This document shows positions 5,866 to 18,475 of a stretch of 64,000 nt of DNA, one piece after another (within the stretch, counting starts at the first letter, position 1; each line of letters begins with the position of its first letter). The stretch is from NCBI GenBank assembly GCA_963708105.1, contig OY970186.1, positions 751,790-815,789 on the forward strand, written 5' to 3'. The position numbers and the translations under genes are program-made. This DNA comes from an uncultured Actinomycetes bacterium (lineage in GTDB: Bacteria > Actinomycetota > Acidimicrobiia > IMCC26256 > PALSA-610). Under the pieces are notes generated by a model that searched no databases, was not told the DNA's origin, and saw only the letters and a program-made list of their open reading frames with translations.

Positions 5866-6885
5866 TCACGCGCGGTTCTCGGTCGCGCCTTCGCCCGCAA
5901 GCAGGCTCTTCTGGTCGAGTACGTACAGGAGCGCGAGCGCGGGAACGATCGTCACCGCGGCAAGCCCGAACACGACGAGCACCGCTTCGAGCGTCCCCGA
6001 CGGCCCCGCCGCCTGCGAAACCTTCAGCGATTCGGGGAGCATGTACGGCCATTGCGCTACTCCCCAGCCGATCACCACCGCCGCGACGGCTCCGATGGAA
6101 AAGAGTCGCGCCCAAGCGGCGGAGCCGCGCAGCAGCAGACCGAGGGAAGCGAGACCGCAGATCGCGGAGATGATCACGAGTGGTAGCGCACGCGACGTGA
6201 GGCCGTCGAAGAGGTATTTCGCGTCGGAGTGGAACACGAAGATCCCGACGAACGCGATGACACCGGATACGACCGCCGCCCCGATGGCGCGCCGACGGAA
6301 GTATTCGCTGAGGTCGTGATCGTCGAGGCGATGCGCGTCCCAGACGAGATACACCGCCGACAGGTACGCACACACGGCTATCGCGAGCAGTCCACCGACC
6401 ACCGACGTCGGGTTGATCCAACTGGACCAGAGGTCGCCGGCCTTCCCGCCCGACGGAACCCGCCCCGACACGATCGCGCCCGCGACTGCGCCCATGCAGA
6501 ACGGGACGATGACCGACGACAGCGCGAACGCGGCGCCGAAGTTGCGGCGATCACGGGTTCGGGTGACGGCCTTTCGGAACGCGAAGCTCGAACCCCGCAA
6601 CACGATCCCGAGCGCGGCGAGGGTCAACGGGACGAACAGCGTGAGCGTGATCGATGCGAACGCTTCGGAGAACGCGGTCCACAACACGACGAGGCAGAAG
6701 ATCAGCCACACGTGGTTCGCTTCCCACACCGGACCGATCGAATGATCGACGAGAGCGCGCGGCCGTTCGCCGCGCTCCGAACCGCCGGCCACGAGGTCCC
6801 AGATGCCGGCCCCGAAGTCGGCGCCGCCGAACAAGGCGTAGGCCGTGACCCCGAAGAACAACACCACCGCGGTTGCGTTGATCAT
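5866..6885 (-). CDS. cydB: Cytochrome bd ubiquinol oxidase subunit II
   Basis: GGADFGAGIWD, IGPVWEANHVWLI; ATGA overlap with cydA. Confidence 0.95.
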   Translation of the reverse strand: MINATAVVLFFGVTAYALFGGADFGAGIWDLVAGGSERGERPRALVDHSIGPVWEANHVWLIFCLVVLWTAFSEAFASITLTLFVPLTLAALGIVLRGSSFAFRKAVTRTRDRRNFGAAFALSSVIVPFCMGAVAGAIVSGRVPSGGKAGDLWSSWINPTSVVGGLLAIAVCAYLSAVYLVWDAHRLDDHDLSEYFRRRAIGAAVVSGVIAFVGIFVFHSDAKYLFDGLTSRALPLVIISAICGLASLGLLLRGSAAWARLFSIGAVAAVVIGWGVAQWPYMLPESLKVSQAAGPSGTLEAVLVVFGLAAVTIVPALALLYVLDQKSLLAGEGATENRA

Positions 6886-8336
6886 CCGACGGGCACCCGC
6901 GGCGACGCGTCGTCGGCGAGAATGCCGGGATCGCTCGGTCCGTACGGGACCTCCGACTCAGAGATGTCGCCGTCGCGCCAGCGCCGACTCATCCCGCGCA
7001 ACACGAGAATCGTTGTCGCCCCGACCACGGCGTAGATCCCGATGACGATGAGGAAGACGAGCCACACGCCTCCGTTCGTCGTCGCGGCGTCGGTGACCGT
7101 CATGTAGTTGTGCACGATCCAAGGCTGGCGGCCGACTTCGGTGACGACCCAACCGGCTTCCATCGTGATTACGGCGAGCACACCGGTACACGCCGCGATC
7201 CGCAAGAACCACTTCGTCTTCGGGTAATCGCGCTTGAACAGCCAGCTCAGTCCGTACCACGCCGACAGCAACGCGAGCAGTGTGCCGAGTCCGACCATGA
7301 TGTCCCAGGCGAGGTGGACGACATTGGCCTGCGCGATCGTCGGCCCATTCGCAACCGGACTCACTGCCGCGGCACCGTTCGCACCGAGCGCCGGGTTCGC
7401 CACCCGCCCCAGCACGATCGTGTTCTTTCCGGTCCTGGGGTCGGAGAGCCACGACGCGAGATCGGGGATCCGGATCCCGCCGGTCACGGTGCCGTTCGAG
7501 TTCATGTGGCCGAACAGCGTTTCCGGCACGTCGTTGCTCGTCTTCGGTACCAACTCGATCGCCGCGAATTTGGCCGGCTCTTCGTTGTAGACGAACCGGG
7601 CGAGCGAATCGCCGACACCCATCTGAATGGGCGTCATGATCGCCGCGACCGTGAAGGGGATGATGAAACCCAGGCGGTGATATCGATCGCGCCGGCCCCG
7701 CAACATGCCCATCGCGTAGACGGACGCGATCAGGAAGCCTCCCACCACGTACGCGGCCACGAGCATGTGCGCGGCCTCGTACGGGAAGGCCTTGTTGAAG
7801 ATCACCTTCCACGGATCGACGTTGACGATCTTCCCCGCACTGTTGAGAGTGAAGCCTTGCGGCTCGTTCATCCAGGCGTTGGCGGCGACGACGGATACCG
7901 CGCCGCCGATTCCGGCCACCACGATCGGCACGCCGGTCCAGAAATGCGCCCATGGCTTCAAGCGTCGCCAGCCGTAGATGTAGATCGCGACGAAGATCGC
8001 CTCCGTGAAGAAGAACAACCCCTCGATCGTGAACGGGATACCGAACGCCGCGCCAAAACGCCCCATGAACGTCGGCCACAGCAGCCCGAACTCGAACGTC
8101 AGCACCGTTCCCGTGACTGCGCCTACCGCGAAGGTCACGGCCATGTACTTCGACCAACGCTGCGCGAGCTGCAACGCCGCCGCGTCGTCGTGTTTCACCG
8201 CTCGATAGTTCGCAATCAGCGTCATGAACGCCCACGAAACGCCGAGCGGGACCAAGATGATGTGGAAGCCGAGCGTGAACGCCATCTGCGAACGCGCCCA
8301 CTTCACCGAGTCGACCGCGAGGATCGCCGAGTTCAT
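6882..8336 (-). CDS. cydA: Cytochrome bd ubiquinol oxidase subunit I
   Basis: AFTLGFHII, GTVLTFEFGLLWP, EGLFFFTE, PAKFAAIE, EAGWVVTEVGRQPW. Confidence 0.95.
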   Translation of the reverse strand: MNSAILAVDSVKWARSQMAFTLGFHIILVPLGVSWAFMTLIANYRAVKHDDAAALQLAQRWSKYMAVTFAVGAVTGTVLTFEFGLLWPTFMGRFGAAFGIPFTIEGLFFFTEAIFVAIYIYGWRRLKPWAHFWTGVPIVVAGIGGAVSVVAANAWMNEPQGFTLNSAGKIVNVDPWKVIFNKAFPYEAAHMLVAAYVVGGFLIASVYAMGMLRGRRDRYHRLGFIIPFTVAAIMTPIQMGVGDSLARFVYNEEPAKFAAIELVPKTSNDVPETLFGHMNSNGTVTGGIRIPDLASWLSDPRTGKNTIVLGRVANPALGANGAAAVSPVANGPTIAQANVVHLAWDIMVGLGTLLALLSAWYGLSWLFKRDYPKTKWFLRIAACTGVLAVITMEAGWVVTEVGRQPWIVHNYMTVTDAATTNGGVWLVFLIVIGIYAVVGATTILVLRGMSRRWRDGDISESEVPYGPSDPGILADDASPRVPVG

Positions 8337-8372
8337 CTGGTTCCAGTTCGCGTCACCCGGTGTCCACTCGAG

Positions 8373-10256
8373 TCAGTATTCGGCCACGAGCTCGGGGAGC
8401 ATGATGCGGGCCGCGGCCTCCAACAGTGCGAGATGTGAGAACGCTTGGGGGAAGTTTCCGAGATGCCGACCGGTGTCAGCGTCGAACTCCTCTGCGTACA
8501 GGCCGAGCGGCGACGCGATGCGTAACAGTTTCTCCATGAGGTCACGCGCCGACTGGAGGTCGCCGACAATCGCCAGGGCTGACACCAACCAGAACGAGCA
8601 GATCAGGAACGTGCCCTCCTTGCCCGAGAGGCCGTCGTCGGTTTCCCCGGTGCGATAGCGCAGAACGAAGCCGTTCTCCGTGAGATCGTTCGCGATCGCC
8701 GCGACAGTTGCGCGCAGTCGGGGATCGTCACCGGGCAAGAACCCGAAGATCGCGACGAGCAGCACGGACGCATCCAGCGAATCGGTTTCGTAGTGCTGGC
8801 GGAACACTCCGGCCTCGCTGACGCCGTGTTCCAGGATGTCGCTGCGGATCTCGTCGGCGACCGCGCGCCATTTTGCTGCGAGCGCGTCGTCGCCCCGGAG
8901 CCCGGCGAGCTTCTCCGCCCGGTCGAGCGCCACCCAACACATGAGCTTCGATGACACGTAATGCCGCGGGTCGCCGCGCGCCTCCCAAATGCCTTGGTCG
9001 GCGTCGCGCCACACCTTCGTCGCGCATTCGGCCTGTGATTCCACGATGGGCCACAGTCCGCGGGGTAGGCGTTTGGCGCGTTTCGTGTGCAGGTGGATCG
9101 AGTCGAGCACGGCGCCGAACACGTCGTTCTGGCGCTGGTCGAACGCGCCGTTGCCGATCCGGACCGGACGCGCGCCCGCGTAGCCCGAGAGGTCATCGCG
9201 CGTGCTCTCCGTGAGATCACGGCGACCGTCGATGCCGTACATGATCTGCAGCGAGCCGTCCTCGGTCGCCTCAACATCGGCGATGAACTGCATGAACTCG
9301 TCGGCTTCCCAATCGAGGTTGAGCCAGTGCAGCGCCTGGAGCGTGAACGTGGTGTCACGGATCCAGGTGTAGCGGTAGTCCCAGTTGCGCTCCCCGCCCG
9401 GCGTCTCGGGCAGCGAGGTGGTGAGCGCGGCGACAGTCGCGCCCGTGGGCATGTACGTGAGCCCTTTGATCACGAGCGCCGAACGTTGGATCGGGTCGCG
9501 GAAGCGATGGTCGGGTATCCGGGCGCGACCCAACCACGATCGCCAGAACCGCATGGTGTTGGCGATCCGCATCGCCGCGTCGTCAGCGTCGGTCGGGCCC
9601 GCGAATTCTTCCGCCCACGACAACGAGCAGAATCGCGCGTTCACCCGCCTCGAGCACGTGTCGCCCTCGCACCCGGCCGCCCTCGATGCCGAGCGCGAGA
9701 TCCGTGTGCAGCCGGATCGTCACGCCCGCGCCGGTCGCGTCGGCGGTGTGACGGTCACCGTCGACAAGGGTCCACTCGGCGGTCTCGCGTCCGTAGTCGA
9801 AGGCCGGCTCGCAGACGAGCTCCATCTCGACTCGACCTTCCACGCACTCGACGGTGCGCACGAGTGTGTGCTCGCCATCGTCGTCGGCCGGCGGGCGGGT
9901 GTGCGGCGTGATCTTGTCTTCGTGGTCCCAGGGCCCAAGCGTGAGCGCGTCGCGCACGACCACCCAACCGGACGGCACCTTCCACGTGGTCACGAGCACG
10001 TTCGTGCCCGGCTCGTAGCGCGCGCGGTGGGGTGGTTGATGCCGAACGGACCGAAGCGGAAGAAGCCGCCTTGGCGGTCAAGGAGCGCGCCGAAGACGCT
10101 CGGCGCGTCGAACCGCGGCACGCAGAGCCAGTCGATCGCGCCGTCGGGCGCCACGAGTGCGCCCGTGTGGCAGTCGGACAAGAACGCGTAGTCGGCGATA
10201 GGCGTGAACGGCGAGGGCGCCGCCGCGCTTTGGCCGTCGCCGGTAGCCGGCTCCAC
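8373..10256 (-). CDS. Glycoside hydrolase family 15 (trehalase/glucoamylase-like); two apparent frameshifts (~9640, ~10020)
   Basis: [54 protein letters not shown]; GGAGG before GTG 10256. Confidence 0.9.
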
Positions 10257-11663
10257 TACTTCCCCTCCGTTGTCGAATCGATCCACGGCTCGTGCCACCG
10301 GCCGTGCCCGGCGACGAGATGGTCGGCGGCCGGCGGCCCCCACGAACCCGGCGCGTACGGCTGCACCGGCGGCGGCGCGTCGAGCAGCGGCTGCATGATG
10401 CGCCAGGTCTCCTCCACGCCGTCCTGACGCGTGAAGCGCGTGCTCTGGCCGTTCATGGCCGCGTCGAGGAGCACTTCGTACGGCGTCGCGCCCTCACCGC
10501 CTTCCTCGGAGAACAACATGTCGAGGTGGATCTCCTCGGCCCGCACGCCACTGGCCTTCCGGGCCTCGAGCTGGAACTTGATGCCCGTCGACGGGTCGAG
10601 CCGCACCACGAGCTGGTTGGCATCGGCATCCGGGTCGCGTAGTTCGAAGCCGAGCCGCGGTGGCTTCTTGAACACGAGCCGCAGCTCGGTCTGGGTGACG
10701 GGCAGCAACTTGCCCGTGCGAATGAAGAACGGAACTCCGGACCAGCGGTAGTTGTCGATCTCGAGCCGAAGCGCGGCGTAGGTCTCGGTGGTCGAGTCGG
10801 GCGCGACACCCTTGATGTCGAGATAGCCCTCGTGTTGGCCGCGTACATAGTGCGCGGGGTCGGCTTCGAGCGTCGCGCGGAACGCCGCGGTCTGGGCGTC
10901 CTTGATCGTCGCGGGATCGCCCCCGGCGGGCGCTTCCATCGCCGCGGCCGACACGACCTGCATGAGATGGTTGACGACCACGTCTCGCAGCGCCCCGACC
11001 GGGTCGTAGAAGTGGCCGCGATCCGCGACACCGAAGCTCTCCGCCATCGTGATCTGCACGGACTCGATGTGGTTGCGGTTCCACACCGGCTCCAGCATCG
11101 TGTTCGCGAACCGAAGGTAGAGAATCTCCTCGAGCCCCATCTTGCCGAGGTAGTGGTCGATGCGGAACAGCTGCGACTCGTCGATGTACTGGTGTAGCTC
11201 GTCGGCCAGCGCATGCGCCGACTCGCGGTCGTGGCCGAACGGCTTCTCCACGACCACCGCGCGGTCTTCGTGAGCCCGGCGTCGAACAACCCCTTCACCA
11301 CCGTGCCGAAAAGGAACGGCGGTACCTCGAGGTAGAACACCGGACGCTCGGCGTCTTTGATCTCGGTGGCGATGCGTTCGTAGGTACCGGCATCGGCGAA
11401 GTCGCCCTGCACATACGACAACCGCGCCGCGAACCGATCGAAGACGGCCGGATCCAGTTGCTCGCCGGTCGCGATGATCGACCCCGCGAGCTCGTTCGAC
11501 GAGCTGCTCGACGGTCCAGTCGTCGACGGCCACACCCACGATCGCGCGTGTCGAGGAGTTTGCGGCGCTCGAGACGGTACAACGACCTGAAGGTCATGAC
11601 TCGGGCGAGGTCGCCCGTGATCCCGAAGATCACGAACACGTCGCCGCGTTGGGGAGCGTCCAT
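10256..11663 (-). CDS. zwf: Glucose-6-phosphate 1-dehydrogenase; apparent frameshifts near 11260-11550
   Basis: [34 protein letters not shown]; TGATG-coupled to GMC gene. Confidence 0.92.
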
Positions 11664-13246
11664 CAGGATCCCAATCGTTCGAGGATGCGGTCACCGACGC
11701 GCAGCGCGTTGGCGATGATCGTGAGGGTTGGATTGACGGCGCCGATCGACACGAAGAATCCCGAGTCGACGACGTAGAGGTTGTCGAGCTCGTGGGCGCG
11801 GCAGTCGAGGTCGAGCACCGATGTCGCGGGGTCGGAGCCGAAGCGCACGGTGCCGGCTTGATGCGCGGTCGCGGCGATGTCCATACCCATGTAGAGGTAC
11901 ACGTTGCGGTGATGGGTCTGTTCGTGCATCCCGAGGTCACTGAGCATCGAATCGAACCGCTTGCGCAGGCGCTTCAGTCCTTCGATGTTGTTGTTCGGGT
12001 CGAGCGTCAGCCGCACCTGGCCGTTGTCGATCGTCACCCGGTTCTCGGGACGCGGCAGGTCCTCGGAGCTGAGCCAGAAGTCGACCGCGTGGAGCGCAAC
12101 CATCTCGAGCGACGCGCCCGGCGTGAGCTTCGCCCCCCACTTGGCCCAGTGCGGCGCCTTACCCCGCAGCATCTCGCCGTCGCTCTTGCCGAGCATCTGG
12201 ATCGCACCCATCGGGAACTCCCAGTCGTCACTCGCGTGGTACCAGTCGCTGAGTGCGAGCGTCTTCTGCAGACGCGTGGGATTCGGCTCCTTCGAGAGGG
12301 CCATGAGTGCCAGGTTGTTGTGCCGCACGTAGTTGCGACCTACCTGGTCGGAGCCGTTGGCGAGTCCGTTCGGGTGCCGTTCGTTGGCGGAACGCAGCAG
12401 GAGCAGCGCGGAGTTGAGTGCTCCGCACGCCACCACGACCACATCGCCCGACACGCGCTGCTCGGTGCCGTCGCTCATCGTGATGACCACAGCATTGATC
12501 TGCCGTCCCGATGCGTCGGTTTCGAGGCGCTCGACATGTGCGTTCGTGATGAGGTCGACGTTCGAGTGTTCGAGCGCCGGGTCCACGCACACGGTCTGCG
12601 CGTCGGCCTTGCCTCCGACCAGACACGGAAAACCGTCGACCCGATCGCAGCGGATGCACGCGCTCGAGTGAAGCGCGTCGCCGTTCGCGTCCTGATCGAG
12701 CATCACGCCGAGCGGGAGGTGCGAAGGGTGGTGCCCGAGCTTGTCGAGATCGTCGTGCAGCTGCTGGATGCGCGGCTCGTGTTGCACTTCGGGATAGGGA
12801 TACGGGCCGCTGCGCGCGCCTTCGGTCGGATCCTCCCCCGCTTTCCCGTGGACGTGATACAGGGCCTCGGCCTGTGCATACCAGGGCTCGAAATCGTCGT
12901 ACGTCAGCGGCCACGCGGGCGAGATGCCACCGTGATGACGGACTTCACCGAAGTCCTCGGGCCGCAACCGGAACAGCGCCGCGCCGTAGAACTTCGTGTT
13001 GCCGCCGACGTAGTAGTTCTGCTCGGGAGTGAACTCCTTGTCGTCGCCGTCGACCCACTGCTCGGTGGTCGTGTACTTCGCGCGCGTGAACACCGAGACG
13101 GTGTCCCAGTTGTCGCGCTCCCACGGCAGATAGTCCCCGCGCTCCAGGAGCAGTATCCGCTTCCCCGACGGTGCCAGCTTCCACGCCAGCGTGCCGCCGC
13201 CCGCTCCACTCCCGATGATCACAACGTCGTAGTGCTGTTCGGGCAT
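11663..13246 (-). CDS. GMC family FAD oxidoreductase
   Basis: DVVIIGSGAGGG, YYVGGNTKFYGA, CIRCDRVDGFPC, AHQAGT, NPTLTIIANALRV. Confidence 0.92.
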   Translation of the reverse strand: MPEQHYDVVIIGSGAGGGTLAWKLAPSGKRILLLERGDYLPWERDNWDTVSVFTRAKYTTTEQWVDGDDKEFTPEQNYYVGGNTKFYGAALFRLRPEDFGEVRHHGGISPAWPLTYDDFEPWYAQAEALYHVHGKAGEDPTEGARSGPYPYPEVQHEPRIQQLHDDLDKLGHHPSHLPLGVMLDQDANGDALHSSACIRCDRVDGFPCLVGGKADAQTVCVDPALEHSNVDLITNAHVERLETDASGRQINAVVITMSDGTEQRVSGDVVVVACGALNSALLLLRSANERHPNGLANGSDQVGRNYVRHNNLALMALSKEPNPTRLQKTLALSDWYHASDDWEFPMGAIQMLGKSDGEMLRGKAPHWAKWGAKLTPGASLEMVALHAVDFWLSSEDLPRPENRVTIDNGQVRLTLDPNNNIEGLKRLRKRFDSMLSDLGMHEQTHHRNVYLYMGMDIAATAHQAGTVRFGSDPATSVLDLDCRAHELDNLYVVDSGFFVSIGAVNPTLTIIANALRVGDRILERLGS

Positions 13247-13281
13247 ATCAACGATCGTCTGGGAGTGGCGTTCGGTCCGCA

Positions 13282-13298
13282 TCACCTGGCCGGGGTGA
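13282..13298. promoter_or_regulatory. Palindromic site TCACCT-GGCCG-GGGTGA between divergent GMC and ndh promoters
   Basis: Inverted repeat with -10-like hexamers 22 nt away on both sides. Confidence 0.7.
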
Positions 13299-13362
13299 TC
13301 ACAAAGGCGGAACCTCCAAATACCCTCGCAACTGGTAGAAGCCCTGCTAGCCGGCGGTTCCA

Positions 13363-14764
13363 GTGACGTCACCAAGCGCAGCTCATGAGGGACCGTCGGC
13401 GCGGCACCGGGTCGTGGTGGTCGGCGGCGGTTTCGGCGGCCTACCCGCCTGCCGGTTCCTCGGCCGACAGCCGGTCGACGTCGTCCTGCTCGACCGACGC
13501 AACCATCATCTGTTCCAACCACTCCTCTACCACGTGGCCACCGCCGTTCTCTCGGAGGGTCATATCGCGGTTCCGCTGCGCGACTCGCTGCAGCGCTACA
13601 AGAACATCCGCGTCGAGCTGGCCGAGGTCACCGGTTTCGATCTCGACCGGCGGGTCGTCTTCGCAACCAGCCCGCTCCACGATCCGGTCGAAGTGCCGTA
13701 CGACAGCCTGATCGTGGCGGCCGGCGTGCGGCAGTCGTACTTCGGTCACGATGAGCTCGCGCTGTACGCACCCGGCATGAAGACGCTCGACGACGCGCTC
13801 GAGATCCGCCGCCGCATCTTCGGCGCGTTCGAGATGGCCGAGGTGACAGCCGACCCGATCGAGAAAAAGAAGTGGTTGACCTTCGCGATAGTCGGCGCCG
13901 GACCGACCGGCGTAGAGATCGCGGGTCAGATACGCGAGCTCGCGACCCGAAGCCTGCGCGGAAACTTCCGTACATTCGACCCCGCGACCGTGCGCGTCCT
14001 GCTCATGGACGGCGGCACGCAACCACTCGCCACATTCGGCAACAAACTCTCCGCGTCCGCGGCGGCCACGCTCGAGAAGCTCGGAGTCGAACTCCACATG
14101 GAGTCGCGGCGTGACCGGCATCGACGCCACAGGAATCGACGTCGAGACCAGCACGGGAACCCAGCACGTCGACGCGCGCGTCGTCGTCTGGGCAGCAGGC
14201 GTCGAGGCATCGCCCCTCGCGGCGCTGCTCGCCGAAGCATCCGGCGCGAAGACCGATCGCAGCGGGCGGATCGCGACGTTGCCCGACCTGACACTCCCCG
14301 GTCACCCCGAGGTGTTCGCGGTCGGCGACATGGTCACGCTCAACGGTCTGCCCGGCGTCGCCGAAGTCGCGATGCAGGGAAGTCTGCACGCCGCCAACAC
14401 CATCGTGCGCCGACTCCGCGGCCAGGAGACGAAGCCGTACACCTATCGCGATGTCGGCAGCGTCGCCGCCATCGGCCGATTTCGAGCAATCTGCAGCTTC
14501 CGGGGCCTGCGCCTGAGTGGATTCGCGGCGTGGATCGTCTGGCTGTTCGTCCATCTGACGTTTCTCAACGGATTCGGGAACCGCGTCGGCGCACTGACGA
14601 GATGGTTCTGGGCGATGGTCGGTCGCAAGCGACACGAACGCATCTTCAGCGTCGGCCACGTCGGCGGCGACCTCAGCGCGCCCGAAGCGGTGCGCGCCCG
14701 GATCACTCCCAACCCCTTTCCCGTGCTGCAGCCGAACGACCCGAAAGCGGAGCCGACTCCGTAA
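13363..14764 (+). CDS. ndh: Type II NADH:quinone oxidoreductase; apparent frameshift ~14108
   Basis: VVVVGGGFGG, HHLFQPLLY, AIVGAGPTGVEIAG, WAAGV, VFAVGD. Confidence 0.9.
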
Positions 14765-14787
14765 GCGCTCGCGTCGGAGCGAGGGCC

Positions 14788-14804
14788 TCACCCGAATCGA
14801 GTGA
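14788..14804. promoter_or_regulatory. Palindromic site TCACCC-GAATC-GAGTGA upstream of antiporter
   Basis: Second copy of the 17-bp motif; the inverted repeat extends to GGCCTCAC/GTGAGGCC. Confidence 0.65.
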
Positions 14805-14871
14805 GGCCACGGTCAGGCACGAATGCGAGGTTGTATCCCGTAGCAAACGCTCGGCGAAGGCGGCGCCCACA

Positions 14872-16153
14872 ATGGAACACGGCCTCGATGCCGAGGCACT
14901 CGCCGTCGTCGCCGGTTGTTTCGTGTTGTGGGGCCTCTTCTCGGCGCGATTGGAGCAGCTGAACATCAGCGCCCCGATCGCGTTCCTCGTGTTGGGTCTC
15001 GCGGTGGCCCACGAACCACTTGCTCTGCTCGAGGTCCACTTGAGCACGGCGACCTTGCGGAGCACCGCAGAGATCACCCTGGCGCTGGTCCTGTTCGGCG
15101 ACGCATCGCGGGTGAACGTCCGGGCCCTGCGCGCCGACCTCGCGGTGCCGACTCGCCTGCTCGCCATCGGGTTGCCGCTGACGATCCTGTTCGGCGGCGG
15201 TTGCGCAGCCCTGCTCTTCGGAAAGGCCGGCTTGTGGGTCGCGGCGCTCATCGGTGCGATAGTCGCTCCAACCGACGCCGCGCTCGGCGCGTCGATCATG
15301 CAAGACGAACGAGTGCCGGCCCGCATCCGCCGCGTGCTCAACGTCGAGAGCGGACTGAACGACGGCATCGCCACGCCGTTCGTGAACCTCTTCGTCGCGG
15401 GCGCGGTCGCGGCCGAGTTCGCGCACACCGAAGGTGTCGGCGGCGCCGCGCTCGACCTACTTGTCGGTGCCGGCATCGGCATCGCGGTCGGGATCATCGG
15501 CGCCCTGCTCATGCACGTGACGAACAAACGGGGTTGGAGTGCGCCCGCGTTTCGCCAGTTCGCGGTGCTTGGCCTCGCCGTGGTCGCGTATGCATTGACC
15601 ATCGAGGCGAGCGGCAACGGATTCGTCGCAGCATTCGTCGGTGGGCTCGCGTTCGGCAGTATCACACCCGCGGCCGACGAACACGTTCTCGCCTTCAGCG
15701 ACGACGTCGGCGAGCTGCTCTCGCTGCTCGTGTGGTTCGTGTTCGGCGCGGCGATGATCGTGCCCGCGTTCAAACATCTCGAGTGGCAAGACGTCGTGTT
15801 CGCGGTTCTCGCACTCACCGTCGTGCGGATGGTGCCCGTCGCGATCGCCCTGGCGGGGGTAGGGCTCGATCGAGCGACCATCGCGTTCATCGGTTGGTTC
15901 GGGCCGCGCGGGTCTCGCGTCGGTGGTGTTCGCGCTCATCGCCTTCGACAGCCTCGATCCGGCCGACGCCAATCGGGTGATCGCCGCGGTCTCGGCCACC
16001 GTTGTGCTGAGCGTCGTCGCGCACGGTGTGACCGGCGGCCCGCTGGCGGAGATCTACGGAAACCACGCCTCCGGTCTGCACCCCGACCAACCCGAGCATG
16101 GAAGCGCGGCCACGCTCCGAACGCGGTCGCACCGGGGTCGGCGTACGAGTTGA
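14872..16153 (+). CDS. Cation:proton antiporter (CPA1/NhaP-like); apparent frameshift ~15912
   Basis: APTDAALG, LNVESGLNDG, GWFGPRG(L)AS. Confidence 0.88.
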
Positions 16154-16222
16154 GGACGTAACGCGGACGCGACGCGCGCTGACCTTGCATGAAGCTTTCC
16201 GACTCGGGACGCGCGCGCAACA

Positions 16223-16239
16223 TCACCCGGCGCGGGTCT
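16223..16239. promoter_or_regulatory. Palindromic site TCACCC-GGCGC-GGGTCT upstream of hydrolase pair
   Basis: Third, more degenerate copy of the 17-bp motif. Confidence 0.5.
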
Positions 16240-16330
16240 TGTACGCCAGGGCTTTCAGGGCCAAGATGCAACCGCCAATTGCGCGACCACTCTGCCCGGC
16301 GGAGAGCGGTCCCGAACGCCGGAGGACCAC

Positions 16331-17230
16331 ATGCTCGAAGACTTGCGGCAGATCAACGCGGGAACCCTCGATGTGGGCTACGTCGACGCGGGGCCAAGCA
16401 ACGGTCAAGCGGTCGTCCTGTTGCACGGATGGCCCTACGACATTCACAGCTTTGCCGACGTCACACCGATACTCACCGCCGCGGGTTACCACGTCATCGT
16501 CCCGTACCTCCGCGGCTACGGGACGACGCGTTTTCTTTCGGACGACACGCCGCGCAACGGTCAGCAGGCAGTTGTCGCGGCCGACGCCGTGGCGCTGATG
16601 GATGCGCTGAACATCGACTCCGCGATCCTCGCGGGCTTCGACTGGGGCGCACGCACCGCCAACGTCGTCGCCGCGCTCTGGCCCGAACGATGCAAGGCCA
16701 CGGTCTCGGTGAGCGGCTACCTGATCGGCAGCCAAGAGGCGAACATGGCACCACTGCCGCCGCAAGCGGAGTTGGCGTGGTGGTACCAGTTCTATTTCGC
16801 GACCGAACGCGGCAAAGCCGGCTACGACAAGAACCGCCGCGACTTTGCCAAGCTCATCTGGACGACCGCGTCGCCCAAGTGGAACTTCGACAGCGCGACC
16901 TTCGATCGGAGCGCGGCCGCCTTCGACAATCCGGACCACGTCGACGTCGTGATTCACAACTACCGTTGGCGGCTCGGCCTGGCCGAAGGCGAAGCGCAAT
17001 ACGACGAACTCGAAACGCGCCTCGCGGAGGCACCAGTGGTCACCGTGCCGACCATCACCCTCGAGGGCGACGCCAACGGCGCGCCGCATCCCGACCCGAG
17101 CGTCTACGCCCCGAAGTTCTCGGGCAAGTACGCGCACCGGAACATCACCGGTGGCGTCGGGCACAACCTCCCGCAGGAAGCTCCACAACCTTTCGCCGAT
17201 GCGGTCATGGAGGTCGACCGCTACGCCTGA
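16331..17230 (+). CDS. Alpha/beta hydrolase (epoxide hydrolase-like)
   Basis: LLHGWP, PYLRGYG, GFDWGA nucleophile elbow, GHNLPQE; GGAGG RBS. Confidence 0.9.
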   Translation: MLEDLRQINAGTLDVGYVDAGPSNGQAVVLLHGWPYDIHSFADVTPILTAAGYHVIVPYLRGYGTTRFLSDDTPRNGQQAVVAADAVALMDALNIDSAILAGFDWGARTANVVAALWPERCKATVSVSGYLIGSQEANMAPLPPQAELAWWYQFYFATERGKAGYDKNRRDFAKLIWTTASPKWNFDSATFDRSAAAFDNPDHVDVVIHNYRWRLGLAEGEAQYDELETRLAEAPVVTVPTITLEGDANGAPHPDPSVYAPKFSGKYAHRNITGGVGHNLPQEAPQPFADAVMEVDRYA

Positions 17231-17263: not shown

Positions 17264-18475
17264 ATGAGTCAAGGCACACAACCGACGACCGGCGCCAAGA
17301 CCGCGATTCGCGCGTTCCAGGTGCTGGACGTCCCGGAAGAGAAGCTCACCGACCTGCGCCGGCGCATCAACGCCATGGTGTGGCCGGACCGCGAACTGGT
17401 CGCGGATCGATCACAGGGCGTGAACCTCGAAACGATGCAAGCGCTCGCGCGTTACTGGGCGAACGATTACGACTGGCGCAAGTGCGAAGCCAAGTTGCAG
17501 AGCCTCCCCCAGTTCGTGACCGAGATCGACGGCGTCGACATCCACTTCATTCATGTTCGTTCGGAACATGCGGGTGCGCTGCCGATGATCATCACGCACG
17601 GTTGGCCGGGCTCGATCATCGAACAGCTCAAGGTCATCGAGCCGCTCACCAACCCGACCGCGTTCGGCGGTACCGCGGCCGACGCGTTCGACGTCGTGAT
17701 TCCGTCGCTGCCCGGTCACGGGTATTCAGGGATCCCGAGAGAGCTGGGTTGGGATCCGATCCGCATCGCGCGCGCGTGGAGCGTGCTGATGACGCGCCTG
17801 GGCTACGACAAGTACGTCGCGCAAGGCGGCGATTGGGGCAACGCGGTAACCGAGCAACTGGCCCTGCAGCTCCCGGCCGGATTGGTCGGCATCCACACGA
17901 ACATGCCGGCCGCCGTTCCCGAAGACATCGGGAAGCTCATCGATGCCCACGGACCCGAACCGACAGGGCTCTCGGCCGACGAGAAGTACGCGTGGGATCA
18001 GCTCGACTTCTTCTTCAAGAAGGGAACCGGCTACGCGGGAGAGATGGCACTGCGTCCGCAGACGCTGTACGCACTCATGGACTCTCCTATCGGGCTCGCG
18101 GCATGGATGCTCGACCACGACGACGCGAGCTACGCGCTCATTGCTCGCGTCTTCGACGGCGCCCAGGAGGGCCTGACCCGCGACGACATCCTCGACAACG
18201 TCACCCTCTACTGGTTGACGGAGACGGCGGTGTCGTCGGCTCGCCTCTACTGGGAGAGCAAGCTCGCGTTCTTCGCACCCAAGGGTGTGACGCTTCCGAC
18301 GGCCGTGAGCGTGTTCCCGAACGAGATCTACACCGCGCCGCGCAGCTGGACCGAGAAGGCGTATCCCAACCTGATCCACTACAACCGGCTCGACAAAGGC
18401 ACGCACTTCGCGGCCTGGGAACAGCCGGAGCTGTTCACCTCGGAGATGCGGGCGTCGTTCGCGTCACTCCGCTGA
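17264..18475 (+). CDS. Epoxide hydrolase (microsomal-type, EHN domain)
   Basis: YWANDYDWR, THGWPGS, PSLPGHGYS, QGGDWG, HFAAWEQP. Confidence 0.92.
   Translation: MSQGTQPTTGAKTAIRAFQVLDVPEEKLTDLRRRINAMVWPDRELVADRSQGVNLETMQALARYWANDYDWRKCEAKLQSLPQFVTEIDGVDIHFIHVRSEHAGALPMIITHGWPGSIIEQLKVIEPLTNPTAFGGTAADAFDVVIPSLPGHGYSGIPRELGWDPIRIARAWSVLMTRLGYDKYVAQGGDWGNAVTEQLALQLPAGLVGIHTNMPAAVPEDIGKLIDAHGPEPTGLSADEKYAWDQLDFFFKKGTGYAGEMALRPQTLYALMDSPIGLAAWMLDHDDASYALIARVFDGAQEGLTRDDILDNVTLYWLTETAVSSARLYWESKLAFFAPKGVTLPTAVSVFPNEIYTAPRSWTEKAYPNLIHYNRLDKGTHFAAWEQPELFTSEMRASFASLR

What the first reader, a model, noticed from the sequence alone, without database searches (positions are those of the whole stretch)
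13254..16267. Undescribed activator regulon: 17-bp palindrome at a fixed 22-bp distance from four -10 elements
Seen: TCACCT-N5-GGGTGA (13282-13298), TCACCC-N5-GAGTGA (14788-14804) and TCACCC-N5-GGGTCT (16223-16239) occupy three consecutive intergenic regions. Exactly 22 nt from the site there is an nAnnnT hexamer in all four gene-facing directions: GACGAT (minus, 13259-13254, 7 nt before the GMC ATG), TACCCT (13321, ndh), TGC-GAGGTT (14827, antiporter) and CAAGAT (16262, hydrolases). The centre falls near -43/-44, a class II activator position, and the first site serves two divergent promoters symmetrically. It does not match the CRP (TGTGA-N6-TCACA) or Rex consensus. Inference: one dimeric activator encoded outside the window controls GMC-zwf-GH15-cydAB, ndh, the antiporter and the epoxide hydrolases. 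The spacing was noticed post hoc.
Basis: partly seen in the sequence, partly recalled or inferred. Interest (0 to 1): 0.8.

Follow-up and report, generated by a model that had tools for sequence, protein, structure and literature searches.

The report
Conserved activator-site regulon in Actinomycetota
A 17-base palindrome between two divergent genes is a real regulatory site: it sits a fixed 22-23 bases upstream of promoter -10 elements at some thirty genes of this genome and in distant actinomycetes, and is probably read by large MalT-like LuxR-family activators.

Summary
Inside the window they are not above chance. Genome-wide, TCACCC-N5-GGGTGA occurs 8 times against 0.27 expected, with a sharp preference for the 5-base spacer. 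An nAnnnT hexamer lies 22 or 23 bases from the site in 30 of 74 orientations, against about 2 per other offset. This holds without the window's own sites.

Downstream genes recur: DUF1269, DUF6325, PLDc_N-SHOCT, BrkB, sulfatases, USP, MIP, DUF2252, GMC. The same families carry the same site in distant Streptosporangiaceae-type, Trebonia and Marmoricola genomes.

The half-sites equal those of Streptomyces BldM, whose spacer is 4. Kitasatospora has only the 4-spacer form. MalT-like LAL regulators fill the motif-dense islands, follow the motif's phyletic pattern, and carry the site upstream of themselves.

Verdicts per site:
- Site 1 (GMC and ndh): solid.
- Site 2 (antiporter): probable, but not conserved and inside a hairpin.
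- Site 3 (hydrolases): doubtful, because it breaks the invariant GA.

This is a new variant of a known kind, a LuxR-HTH activator acting from about -44.

The parts
13282..13298 (.). Site 1: TCACCTGGCCGGGGTGA, a shared operator of the divergent GMC and ndh promoters. The extended form is GCA-TCACCT...GGGTGA-TCA.
   Evidence: Identical in G014 within an intergenic region that otherwise carries an indel. One of 14 genome copies of TCACCY-N5-RGGTGA. The same architecture is seen upstream of distant GMC orthologues.
13254..13259 (-). -10-like hexamer GACGAT of the GMC promoter. It lies 22 nt from site 1 and 7 nt before the ATG, a leaderless layout.
   Evidence: Distant GMC orthologues have the hexamer 6 nt before the start codon.
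11663..13246 (-). GMC oxidoreductase gene, first gene of a tightly packed co-directional cluster.
   Evidence: Pfam GMC_oxred_N/C.
5866..11539 (-). zwf (10256-11539 plus a shifted N-terminal part), GH15 (8373-9999, two frames), cydA (6882-8336) and cydB (5866-6885). Inferred to be co-transcribed with GMC from spacing only.
   Evidence: Pfam G6PD, Glyco_hydro_15, Cyt_bd_oxida_I/II. ORF layout. No further site with up to 2 mismatches in this stretch. The operon is inferred, not shown.
13321..13326 (+). -10-like hexamer TACCCT of the ndh promoter, 22 nt from site 1.
   Evidence: G014 has TAGGTT at 23 nt.
13363..14764 (+). NDH-2-type NADH dehydrogenase gene, with the reading frame broken near 14110.
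   Evidence: Pyr_redox_2 on both pieces. Frames read.
14788..14804 (.). Site 2: TCACCCGAATCGAGTGA (1 mismatch), followed by GGC. Probable operator of the antiporter promoter in this genome.
   Evidence: Not present in G014, where an extra ORF lies between ndh and the antiporter.
14765..14826 (+). Long imperfect hairpin directly after the ndh stop, with site 2 at its tip. Possible 3'-end hairpin of ndh with no U tract.
   Evidence: Fold of -33.9 kcal/mol, z -3.19. No terminator-like site with a T run.
14827..14832 (+). -10-like hexamer GAGGTT, 22 nt from site 2.
14872..16152 (+). Na+/H+ exchanger gene, with the frame broken near 15910.
   Evidence: Na_H_Exchanger. Frames read.
16223..16239 (.). 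Site 3: TCACCCGGCGCGGGTCT, 2 mismatches, both in the invariant GA of the promoter-proximal half. Doubtful member.
   Evidence: G014 has the same GGGTCT and a left half one base shorter.
16262..16267 (+). Hexamer CAAGAT, 22 nt from site 3 and upstream of the hydrolase genes at 16331-17230 and 17264-18475.
   Evidence: G014 has CAAGCT.

Best explanation
Site 1, and probably site 2, are operators of a conserved regulon. A dimer of a LuxR-type (GerE helix-turn-helix) activator binds TCACCC-N5-GGGTGA. The promoter-side flank K-G-C is also conserved. The palindrome ends 22-23 nt upstream of an nAnnnT -10 hexamer, so it covers about -52 to -36 (centre -43/-44). That is where a -35 element would begin, and none is present. 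The bound protein would recruit RNA polymerase in place of the -35 contact. Several targets, GMC among them, would be leaderless, with the start codon 5-9 nt after the hexamer. Site 1 drives two divergent promoters: GMC(-zwf-GH15-cydAB) and ndh.

The most likely regulators are MalT-like LAL proteins (STAND NTPase, MalT-type TPR, GerE). Several paralogues share the recognition helix S-x-N-T-V/I-K-T-H, and some have the site upstream of their own gene.

Shown: the motif, its spacing, its phase with the -10, the recurrence of target families, cross-lineage conservation, and the co-occurrence with LALs. Inferred: binding, activation, transcription starts, the operon, and the signal.

My odds:
- Real protein-binding promoter element: about 0.85.
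- It acts as an activator site: about 0.75.
- The regulator is a LAL: about 0.6.
For: Over-representation with a fixed spacer:
- 8 perfect sites against 0.27 expected.
- 29 one-mismatch sites against 11.3 expected.

Phase with the -10:
- nAnnnT at offset 22 in 18 of 74 orientations and at offset 23 in 12 of 74, against 2.1 elsewhere.
- 15 and 12 of 70 outside the window.
- In four distant islands, 50 of 100 orientations have it at 21-23.
- In the Marmoricola MAG, 7 of 7 sites have it.
- No sigma-70-type promoter match in 13000-16500, and no T-T-G-A-C-like preference after the site.

Location: 22 of 37 site centres fall outside crude ORF calls that leave 29.9% of the genome uncovered (P = 1.8e-4).

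Target coherence in G000:
- DUF1269 x2, plus a third without a canonical hexamer.
- DUF6325 x2, PLDc_N-SHOCT x2, BrkB x2, sulfatase x3.
- USP, MIP, PAP2, MFS, GMC, and the divergent DUF2252/SfLAP pair.

Same families behind the same site in distant genomes: 18 of 46 downstream ORFs hit a G000 regulon protein. They are GMC x3, DUF2252 x3, SHOCT x3, DUF6325 x3, SulP x2, sulfatase x2, MIP and zwf.

Footprint at GMC:
- G014 keeps site 1 identical, with 22 nt to GAGGAT, although its leader is about 51 nt longer.
- 13 of 80 GMC orthologue loci have the motif at -57/-58 from the start.

LAL link:
- LAL 4567904-4570534 has AAA_16, TPR_MalT and GerE, and a site 23 nt from TAGCGT upstream of it.
- It has full-length orthologues of 41-43% identity in all 5 distant motif-rich genomes, and LAL paralogues lie on the motif-dense contigs.
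- 10 of 10 GerE ORFs in those islands are LALs sharing the NT(V/I)KTH helix.
- The query finds nothing in the motif-poor G003, G008 and G042.
- Its single hit in the Marmoricola MAG is preceded by a perfect site, then 22 nt, CACGGT, 8 nt and the start codon.
Against: - No transcription start, binding or expression data exist. No RNA run was listed.
- Gene calls are crude (GC3-based), and the assembly has many frame breaks, so distances to start codons are approximate.
- LAL co-occurrence could reflect shared island membership rather than binding.
- One LAL next to two sites (2185419-2188667) has a different recognition helix.
- A NarL-type response regulator also lies in the G000 island. It occurs at 70% identity or more only in G014, G016 and G017, the genus members with most sites.
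- The one characterised protein with these half-sites, BldM, is a response regulator, not a LAL.
- Three perfect sites lack nAnnnT at 22/23: 1040223 and 4549504 in both orientations, and 1407485 has one but no gene behind it.
- About 11 of the 29 one-mismatch sites are expected by chance.
Confidence: 0.6

Rival explanations
1. The same promoter architecture, but the protein is a NarL/FixJ-type response regulator related to BldM. An example is the one encoded at genome 1404038-1404762, inside the motif-dense island. The LALs would be targets or co-residents only.
For: - BldM, a NarL/FixJ response regulator, binds TCACcCgnncGgGTGA, which has the same half-sites.
- The G000 island encodes a Response_reg plus GerE protein.
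- Orthologues of 70% identity or more occur only in G014, G016 and G017, the genus members with 11, 7 and 5 sites.
- Its helix S-L-A-T-V-K-T-H resembles the LAL helix.
Against: - In five distant motif-rich genomes it has only paralogue-level hits (about 50% identity or less, many per genome), and none on the densest contigs.
- 0 of 10 GerE ORFs in the distant islands is a response regulator.
- No site with a canonical hexamer lies upstream of it.
Confidence: 0.2
2. The palindrome is a repressor operator that blocks the -35 region, not an activator site.
For: A site covering -52 to -36 could hinder polymerase. Nothing here measures the direction of control.
Against: - The promoters have no recognisable -35 element. 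The site keeps a one-base-precise phase with the -10 in about 30 promoters and across orders. This is the pattern of activators that replace the -35 contact.
- BldM activates from the same half-sites (abstract and passages).
Confidence: 0.1
3. The palindromes are RNA hairpins (3'-end or terminator hairpins) or a REP-like repeat, not protein-binding DNA. For site 2 alone, it is the ndh 3' hairpin and matches the motif by accident.
For: - Site 2 is the tip of a 62-nt hairpin starting right after the ndh stop (-33.9 kcal/mol, z -3.19).
- Several sites overlap or follow stop codons of upstream genes.
Against: - The sequence, not just the pairing, is conserved, and the loop length is fixed at 5.
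- Site 1 folds no better than shuffles (z -0.51).
- There are no T tracts and no Rfam match.
- The phase with a downstream -10 and start codon has no meaning for a terminator.
- Stop-codon overlaps follow from short gaps between tandem genes.
Confidence: 0.04
4. Chance. This applies to site 3 only: TCACCC-N5-GGGTCT with CAAGAT at 22 nt would be a coincidental near-match in a GC-rich intergenic region.
For: - There are 128 two-mismatch sites in the genome. About 15 orientations would be expected to have nAnnnT at 22/23 by chance, against 23 rows (22 promoters) seen.
- Site 3's two mismatches hit G5 and A6, which are 30 of 30 in G000 and 45 and 43 of 45 in distant promoters.
Against: - It lies upstream of a gene at a suitable distance (63 nt to the ATG).
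- The distal half is perfect.
- BldM-WhiI shows that one consensus half plus a different half can be a functional heterodimer site.
Confidence: 0.75

Closest known systems
BldM Group I operator of Streptomyces venezuelae (Al-Bassam et al. 2014, PMC4125116; abstract and passages read)
   Same: - Identical half-sites TCACCC / GGGTGA in inverted orientation.
- Bound by a dimer of a GerE-HTH (NarL/FixJ) activator.
- A heterodimer variant keeps one half-site.
   Different: - The spacer is 4 (16 bp) there and 5 (17 bp) here.
- The two forms segregate by lineage. Kitasatospora has 7 of 7 and 4 of 4 with spacer 4. The Marmoricola MAG has 7 of 7 with spacer 5. Streptacidiphilus has 4 with spacer 4 and 3 with spacer 5.
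- BldM is an orphan response regulator controlling sporulation genes. Here the targets are membrane, stress and respiratory genes, and the co-occurring regulators are LALs.
- The BldM target tables are supplements that I could not see.
MalT of E. coli and its MalT boxes (LAL founder)
   Same: - The candidate regulators have the same domain set: STAND NTPase, MalT-like TPR (PF17874) and GerE.
- The MalT box core GGA[TG]GA, as quoted in PMC9628970, differs from GGGTGA at one base. GGATGA / TCATCC variants occur among the sites.
- MalT also activates promoters lacking a -35 from a box next to that position. The -37.5/-38.5 position is recalled, not from a call.
   Different: - MalT boxes are asymmetric and used as repeats bound by an oligomer (recalled). 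Here there is a strict 17-bp palindrome.
- No sequence-level match of the C-terminal domain to a solved MalT chain was returned.
lux-box / tra-box type promoters of LuxR and TraR (class II-type activation)
   Same: A palindromic operator of 18-20 bp centred near -42 to -45 overlaps the -35 region and replaces it (recalled). The regulators carry a GerE-family HTH.
   Different: - Different sequence and acyl-homoserine-lactone receptors.
- Proteobacterial.
- No STAND or TPR domains.
Streptomyces LAL SCO6993 (PMC9628970; passages read)
   Same: An actinobacterial LAL shown to bind short palindromes, including two in its own promoter (-54 to -37 and -144 to -131).
   Different: - It acts as a repressor.
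- The footprinted sequences share no consensus and do not resemble TCACCC-N5-GGGTGA.

Membership tests
LuxR/GerE-HTH activator operator overlapping the -35 (class II-type) | Palindromic operator of about 16-20 bp with fixed half-site spacing | tested here: met
   The spacer-5 peak is 14 against 0-4 at other spacers. Perfect sites number 8 against 0-3.
LuxR/GerE-HTH activator operator overlapping the -35 (class II-type) | Fixed position next to or overlapping the -35 region, at promoters without their own -35 | tested here: met
   nAnnnT lies at 22/23 nt in 30 of 74 orientations. There is no -35-like preference after the site and no sigma-70 match. The positions rest on inferred starts, not mapped ones.
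LuxR/GerE-HTH activator operator overlapping the -35 (class II-type) | Bound by a GerE-domain protein that activates transcription | not testable with these tools
   Only co-occurrence evidence is available.
BldM Group I operator | Half-sites TCACCC and GGGTGA inverted | tested here: met
   Searches compared with the consensus quoted.
BldM Group I operator | 16-bp palindrome, i.e. a 4-bp spacer | tested here: not met
   G000 has 8 perfect sites with spacer 5 and 1 with spacer 4. Streptomycetaceae genomes show the spacer-4 form.
BldM Group I operator | Regulator is the orphan NarL/FixJ response regulator BldM | tested here: inconclusive
   A NarL-type regulator lies in the G000 island, but it has no clear orthologue in distant motif-rich genomes. 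No BldM reference sequence was available for comparison.
LAL / MalT-type regulon | Regulator with STAND NTPase, MalT-like TPR and C-terminal GerE | tested here: met
   AAA_16, TPR_MalT and GerE on 4567904-4570534. TPR_MalT plus GerE on 1405870-1407501, and AAA_16 plus TPR plus GerE on 2185419-2188667.
LAL / MalT-type regulon | Operator built from the MalT-box core GGA[TG]GA | tested here: inconclusive
   GGGTGA matches 5 of 6 bases. GGATGA variants occur at 704234, 1476783 and 1486079. The core is taken from PMC9628970.
LAL / MalT-type regulon | The regulator's presence follows the presence of the operator | tested here: met
   There are 8-11 matches in each of 5 motif-rich genomes. There are 0 in G003, G008 and G042, 1 weak match in Kitasatospora, and 1 next to a perfect site in the Marmoricola MAG. 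Only 10 genomes were tested.
CRP/FNR-type site | TGTGA-N6-TCACA | tested here: not met
The sites read TCACC-N7-GGTGA, with different half-sites and an everted order.
Intrinsic terminator | GC-rich stem followed by a T run | tested here: not met
   0 terminator-like sites in 13000-16500. Site 2 has a long stem but no T run.
Known RNA family | Match to an Rfam covariance model | tested here: not met
   0 matches at E up to 1 in 12500-17000.

The most novel reading that the evidence does not exclude
A patchily distributed, island-borne regulon in which several paralogous STAND (LAL) sensors share one operator and one promoter geometry. The geometry is the palindrome at -44, no -35 element, and often leaderless transcripts. 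Different signals would thereby converge on one set of membrane, stress and respiratory genes: DUF1269, DUF6325, SHOCT, BrkB, USP, cytochrome bd, NDH-2, GMC-zwf-GH15. The regulators, operator and targets would move together between distant Actinomycetota. The operator differs from BldM's by a single spacer base, which would be what keeps the two regulons apart where both exist (Streptacidiphilus).
Probability: 0.3. Interest if true: 0.75.

Novelty: new variant of a known kind. Interest (0 to 1): 0.62.

Why it matters
LAL regulators are among the most numerous and least understood regulators of actinomycetes, and few have a defined DNA site. This work gives a precise 17-bp operator, a one-base-precise promoter geometry, a target list and named candidate regulators. 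All of it is testable in cultured carriers such as Trebonia kvetii.

It assigns a common control to a set of domains of unknown function (DUF1269, DUF6325, DUF2252, PLDc_N-SHOCT). It links them to alternative respiration (cytochrome bd, NDH-2) and sugar oxidation.

The contrast between the 4-base and 5-base spacer, on identical half-sites, is a clean natural case of how spacer length can separate two regulons.

Tried and rejected
- **Chance within the window.** The window alone cannot show significance. Only the genome could.
- **Mononucleotide expectations for palindromes.** These were useless, because codon-derived hexamers dominate. I used half-site counts and other spacers as controls instead.
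- **Generic hairpin or terminator and Rfam RNA.** Rejected, except as a second reading of site 2.
- **SigB/SigF-type promoter (GTTT...GGGTAT, recalled consensus).** I considered it for GGGTGAT and for the Trebonia-type upstream regions. I dropped it because the distance to the nearest GTTT is too short and the motif is a palindrome.
- **Response regulator as the conserved factor.** Weakened.
- **Regulators next to GMC in 80 loci.** Only 5 loci had a GerE ORF within 3 kb, so that was not decisive.
- **PDB search with the LAL C-terminal 83 residues.** It returned only generic NarL-family domains: ChrA, GerE, VraR, DevR.
- **RNA evidence.** No RNA holder was listed.
- **Literature.**
  - Motif-string searches found only the BldM paper among relevant hits.
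  - The LAL binding-site search gave SCO6993, which has unrelated sites.
  - The MalT-box search gave no positions.
  - The DUF-family regulon search gave nothing relevant.
  - My statement that the 5-spacer motif is not in print rests only. Supplements, including the BldM target tables, were closed.
- **Conserved copy at 2294172.** An Rfam scan of locus L009, run to explain this copy, found nothing.
- **Correction to my notebook.** Entry 4 says 8 of 13 f26 genomes and DUF2252 x4. The outputs give 7 of 13 and x3.


Full report
**What is in the window**

Pfam confirms the genes. On the minus strand lie a GMC oxidoreductase, G6PD, GH15 and cytochrome bd subunits I and II. On the plus strand lie an NDH-2-type dehydrogenase, a Na+/H+ exchanger, an alpha/beta hydrolase and an epoxide hydrolase.

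Several genes (ndh near 14110, the exchanger near 15910, zwf, GH15) change frame in mid-gene. The genome is a single 4.70-Mb contig of 68.3% G+C, yet it scores only 51.5% complete. I therefore read these frame changes as indel errors of the assembly rather than as decay. One-base differences in spacing should be treated with that in mind.

**Is it more than chance?**

Inside the window, no. There are 3 near-matches against 2.18 expected.

In the whole genome, yes.
- TCACCY-N5-RGGTGA occurs 14 times against 0.98 expected from the half-site counts. Spacers 0-15 other than 5 give 0-4.
- Perfect TCACCC-N5-GGGTGA occurs 8 times against 0.27 expected. One-mismatch sites number 29 against 11.3 expected, and other spacers give 3-19.
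- A fixed spacer argues for a protein of fixed geometry, not for a generic hairpin.
- 22 of 37 site centres lie outside my crude GC3-based ORF calls, which leave 29.9% of the genome uncovered (P = 1.8e-4).

**The spacing**

I took the 37 sites with at most one mismatch, in both orientations (74 in all).
- nAnnnT begins 22 nt after the site in 18 orientations and 23 nt after it in 12.
- The other 58 offsets average 2.1.
- Leaving out the window's own sites, the counts are 15 and 12 of 70 (P = 1.4e-9 for 22, and 6.7e-16 for 22 or 23).
- This gives 30 oriented promoters at 27 sites. In 25 of them an ORF of 50 aa or more starts within 250 nt.
- In five of them the start codon is 5-9 nt from the hexamer, which is a leaderless layout.

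Within these promoters, G5 and A6 of the promoter-side half are invariant (30 of 30). The three bases after it prefer K-G-C. Nothing resembling TTGACA follows, and the sigma-70 scan finds nothing in 13000-16500.

If the hexamer sits at -12/-13 to -7/-8, the palindrome covers about -52 to -36, centred at -43/-44.

**Targets**

Pfam on the downstream ORFs shows recurring families:
- DUF1269 at two canonical promoters, plus a third with a site but no canonical hexamer.
- DUF6325 x2, PLDc_N-SHOCT x2, BrkB/YihY x2, sulfatase x3.
- DUF11 x2, one of them at a two-mismatch site.
- USP, MIP, PAP2, MFS.
- A divergent DUF2252/SfLAP pair sharing one site, as GMC and ndh do.
- The GMC cluster, and LAL regulators.

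The sites crowd into two islands, at 1.402-1.426 Mb and 1.476-1.486 Mb of the genome.

**Relatives**

Within the genus, the motif is frequent only in G014, G016 and G017 (11, 7 and 5 copies). The others have 0-4.

G014 keeps site 1 letter for letter, with 22 nt to GAGGAT on the GMC side. Its GMC leader is nevertheless about 51 nt longer and carries a Shine-Dalgarno sequence. On the ndh side G014 has TAGGTT at 23 nt.

Among the 80 GMC orthologue loci from named records:
- 31 have CACCY-N5-RGGTG (up to 1 mismatch) within 500 nt upstream.
- 13 have it at -57/-58 from the start.
- Read by eye, the layout there is site, 22 nt, GATAGT-like hexamer, 6-7 nt, start codon.

Five such genomes hold 8-23 copies per strand of TCACCC-N5-GGGKGA, against 0-1 for the control pattern, and the copies are clustered on a few contigs. 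The genomes are Trebonia kvetii, two Streptosporangiaceae MAGs and two uncultured Actinomycetes MAGs.

In 172.7 kb of four of these islands:
- 50 of 100 orientations have a hexamer at 21-23 nt.
- 18 of the 46 downstream ORFs are homologues of G000 regulon proteins: GMC x3, DUF2252 x3, SHOCT x3, DUF6325 x3, SulP x2, sulfatase x2, MIP and zwf.

A Marmoricola MAG has 7 perfect sites, all with a hexamer at 22/23. Among the ORFs behind them are DUF1269, a sulfatase and a LAL. A second DUF1269 follows one site on the side that lacks a hexamer.

In a phylum-wide draw of 201 genomes, 4 or more perfect sites occur only in G000 and in 7 of the 13 genomes of one family (f26). The large-genome families that probably include the model genera have 0-3.

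**Which protein?**

The half-sites are those of the BldM Group I operator, TCACcCgnncGgGTGA, which has a spacer of 4. The two spacings segregate by lineage:
- Two Kitasatospora genomes have only spacer 4 (7 of 7 and 4 of 4).
- Streptacidiphilus has 4 sites with spacer 4 and 3 with spacer 5.
- The Marmoricola MAG has only spacer 5.

So this is a sister system with the same base recognition and a different dimer geometry.

G000 has 33 GerE-domain matches, none inside the window. The evidence points to MalT-like LALs.
- A subset of the G000 GerE proteins shares the helix S-x-N-T-V-K-T-H. It comprises three LALs and one broken LAL.
- LAL 4567904-4570534 (AAA_16, TPR_MalT, GerE) has a site upstream of it.
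- It has full-length orthologues (41-43% identity) in all five distant motif-rich genomes, and LAL paralogues lie on the dense contigs.
- All 10 GerE ORFs of the distant islands are LALs with that helix.
- The query finds nothing in the motif-poor G003, G008 and G042. It finds one weak hit in Kitasatospora.
- In the Marmoricola MAG it finds one hit, directly behind a perfect site with canonical geometry.
- The MalT-box core, quoted as GGA[TG]GA, is one base from GGGTGA, and GGATGA variants occur among the sites.

Evidence pointing the other way:
- The island's NarL-type regulator tracks the motif within the genus. It has no clear orthologue further away.
- One site-flanked LAL has a different helix.

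**The three sites**

- **Site 1** is as well supported as sequence analysis allows, in both directions.
- **Site 2** has one tolerated mismatch (GAGTGA), the GGC flank and GAGGTT at 22 nt. Only about 1.5 such one-mismatch hits are expected by chance in the genome, against 24 seen. However, G014 has an extra ORF and no site there. The site also crowns a long hairpin after the ndh stop. I put it at about 0.65.
- **Site 3** breaks both invariant bases. Two-mismatch sites are mostly chance: about 15 expected with a hexamer against 23 rows seen. I put it at about 0.2.

The co-transcription of zwf, GH15 and cydAB with GMC is inferred from gene packing only.

**Novelty**

No paper in the searched library gives the 5-spacer motif or this regulon. 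Supplements were not visible.

The kind of system is known: a GerE-HTH dimer acting from about -44. What is new:
- the operator;
- its one-base distinction from BldM's;
- the probable LAL readers;
- the target set;
- the patchy, island-like distribution.

Noticed in passing
window 13363-14764, 14872-16152, 8373-11940: ndh, the Na+/H+ exchanger, zwf and GH15 each continue in another frame in mid-gene. The genome is one 4.7-Mb contig but scores 51.5% complete. This looks like indel errors of the assembly rather than pseudogenes.
   Followed up: partly
window 13247-13259 versus L033 (G014) and L034 (G016): G000 lacks about 51 nt of GMC leader that G014, G016 and a third close relative have, including a Shine-Dalgarno sequence. 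G000 therefore has the leaderless layout of distant orthologues, while the site-to--10 module is unchanged.
   Followed up: partly
L113 (G014:C2:934000-941700), between ndh and the antiporter: G014 has an extra ORF of about 400-500 nt between ndh and the antiporter, SnoaL/NTF2-like by eye and not scanned. G000 has only the 107-nt gap that holds site 2.
   Followed up: no
G000:C1:1407485-1407501 (L001:7485-7501): A perfect palindrome overlaps the stop codon of LAL 1405870-1407501. It lies between two convergent LAL genes. It has CACGCT at 22 nt but no ORF behind it. It may be an antisense promoter or may be non-functional. Unexplained.
   Followed up: no
G000:C1:1040223-1040239 and 4549504-4549520: Two perfect palindromes in divergent intergenic regions have no nAnnnT at 22/23 in either direction. 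One lies between a thioredoxin-like/AhpC gene and a cupin gene. The other lies between a small ORF and a LAL. Only TAGGAA and TACAGC are present at the first.
   Followed up: no
G000:C1:2294172-2294188 (L009) and contig edges in G003, G004, G007, G008, G013: TCACCTTCACCGGGTGA is conserved letter for letter in several genus members, mostly 230-510 nt from a contig end. In G000 it lies at what reads as the start of an ORF on the minus strand. There is no Rfam match. It is probably a repeated or conserved gene and not part of the regulon.
   Followed up: partly
G020, G022, G023, G025, G027, G028, G030 and others: TCACCTTGCCAAGGTGA is identical in many genomes of the order but is not among G000's 14 copies. 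It is presumably inside a conserved gene or RNA.
   Followed up: no
G000:C1:1413673 to 1407805, and 2184690 to 2189302: The order site, PLDc_N-SHOCT gene, (other genes), LAL gene appears twice. At the second locus another site and a DUF1269 gene follow the LAL. The small SHOCT membrane protein may be functionally tied to the LAL.
   Followed up: no
G000:C1:1476783-1476799: One site serves divergent DUF2252 and SfLAP genes, with hexamers at 22 and 23 nt and start codons 5 and 9 nt further on. This is a second leaderless divergent pair, like GMC/ndh.
   Followed up: partly
family f26: In a phylum-wide draw, all 13 genomes of one unnamed family have the 5-spacer palindrome, 7 of them 4-19 times. 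Most other families have 0-2 copies. The distribution is patchy, which would fit lateral spread of the island.
   Followed up: no
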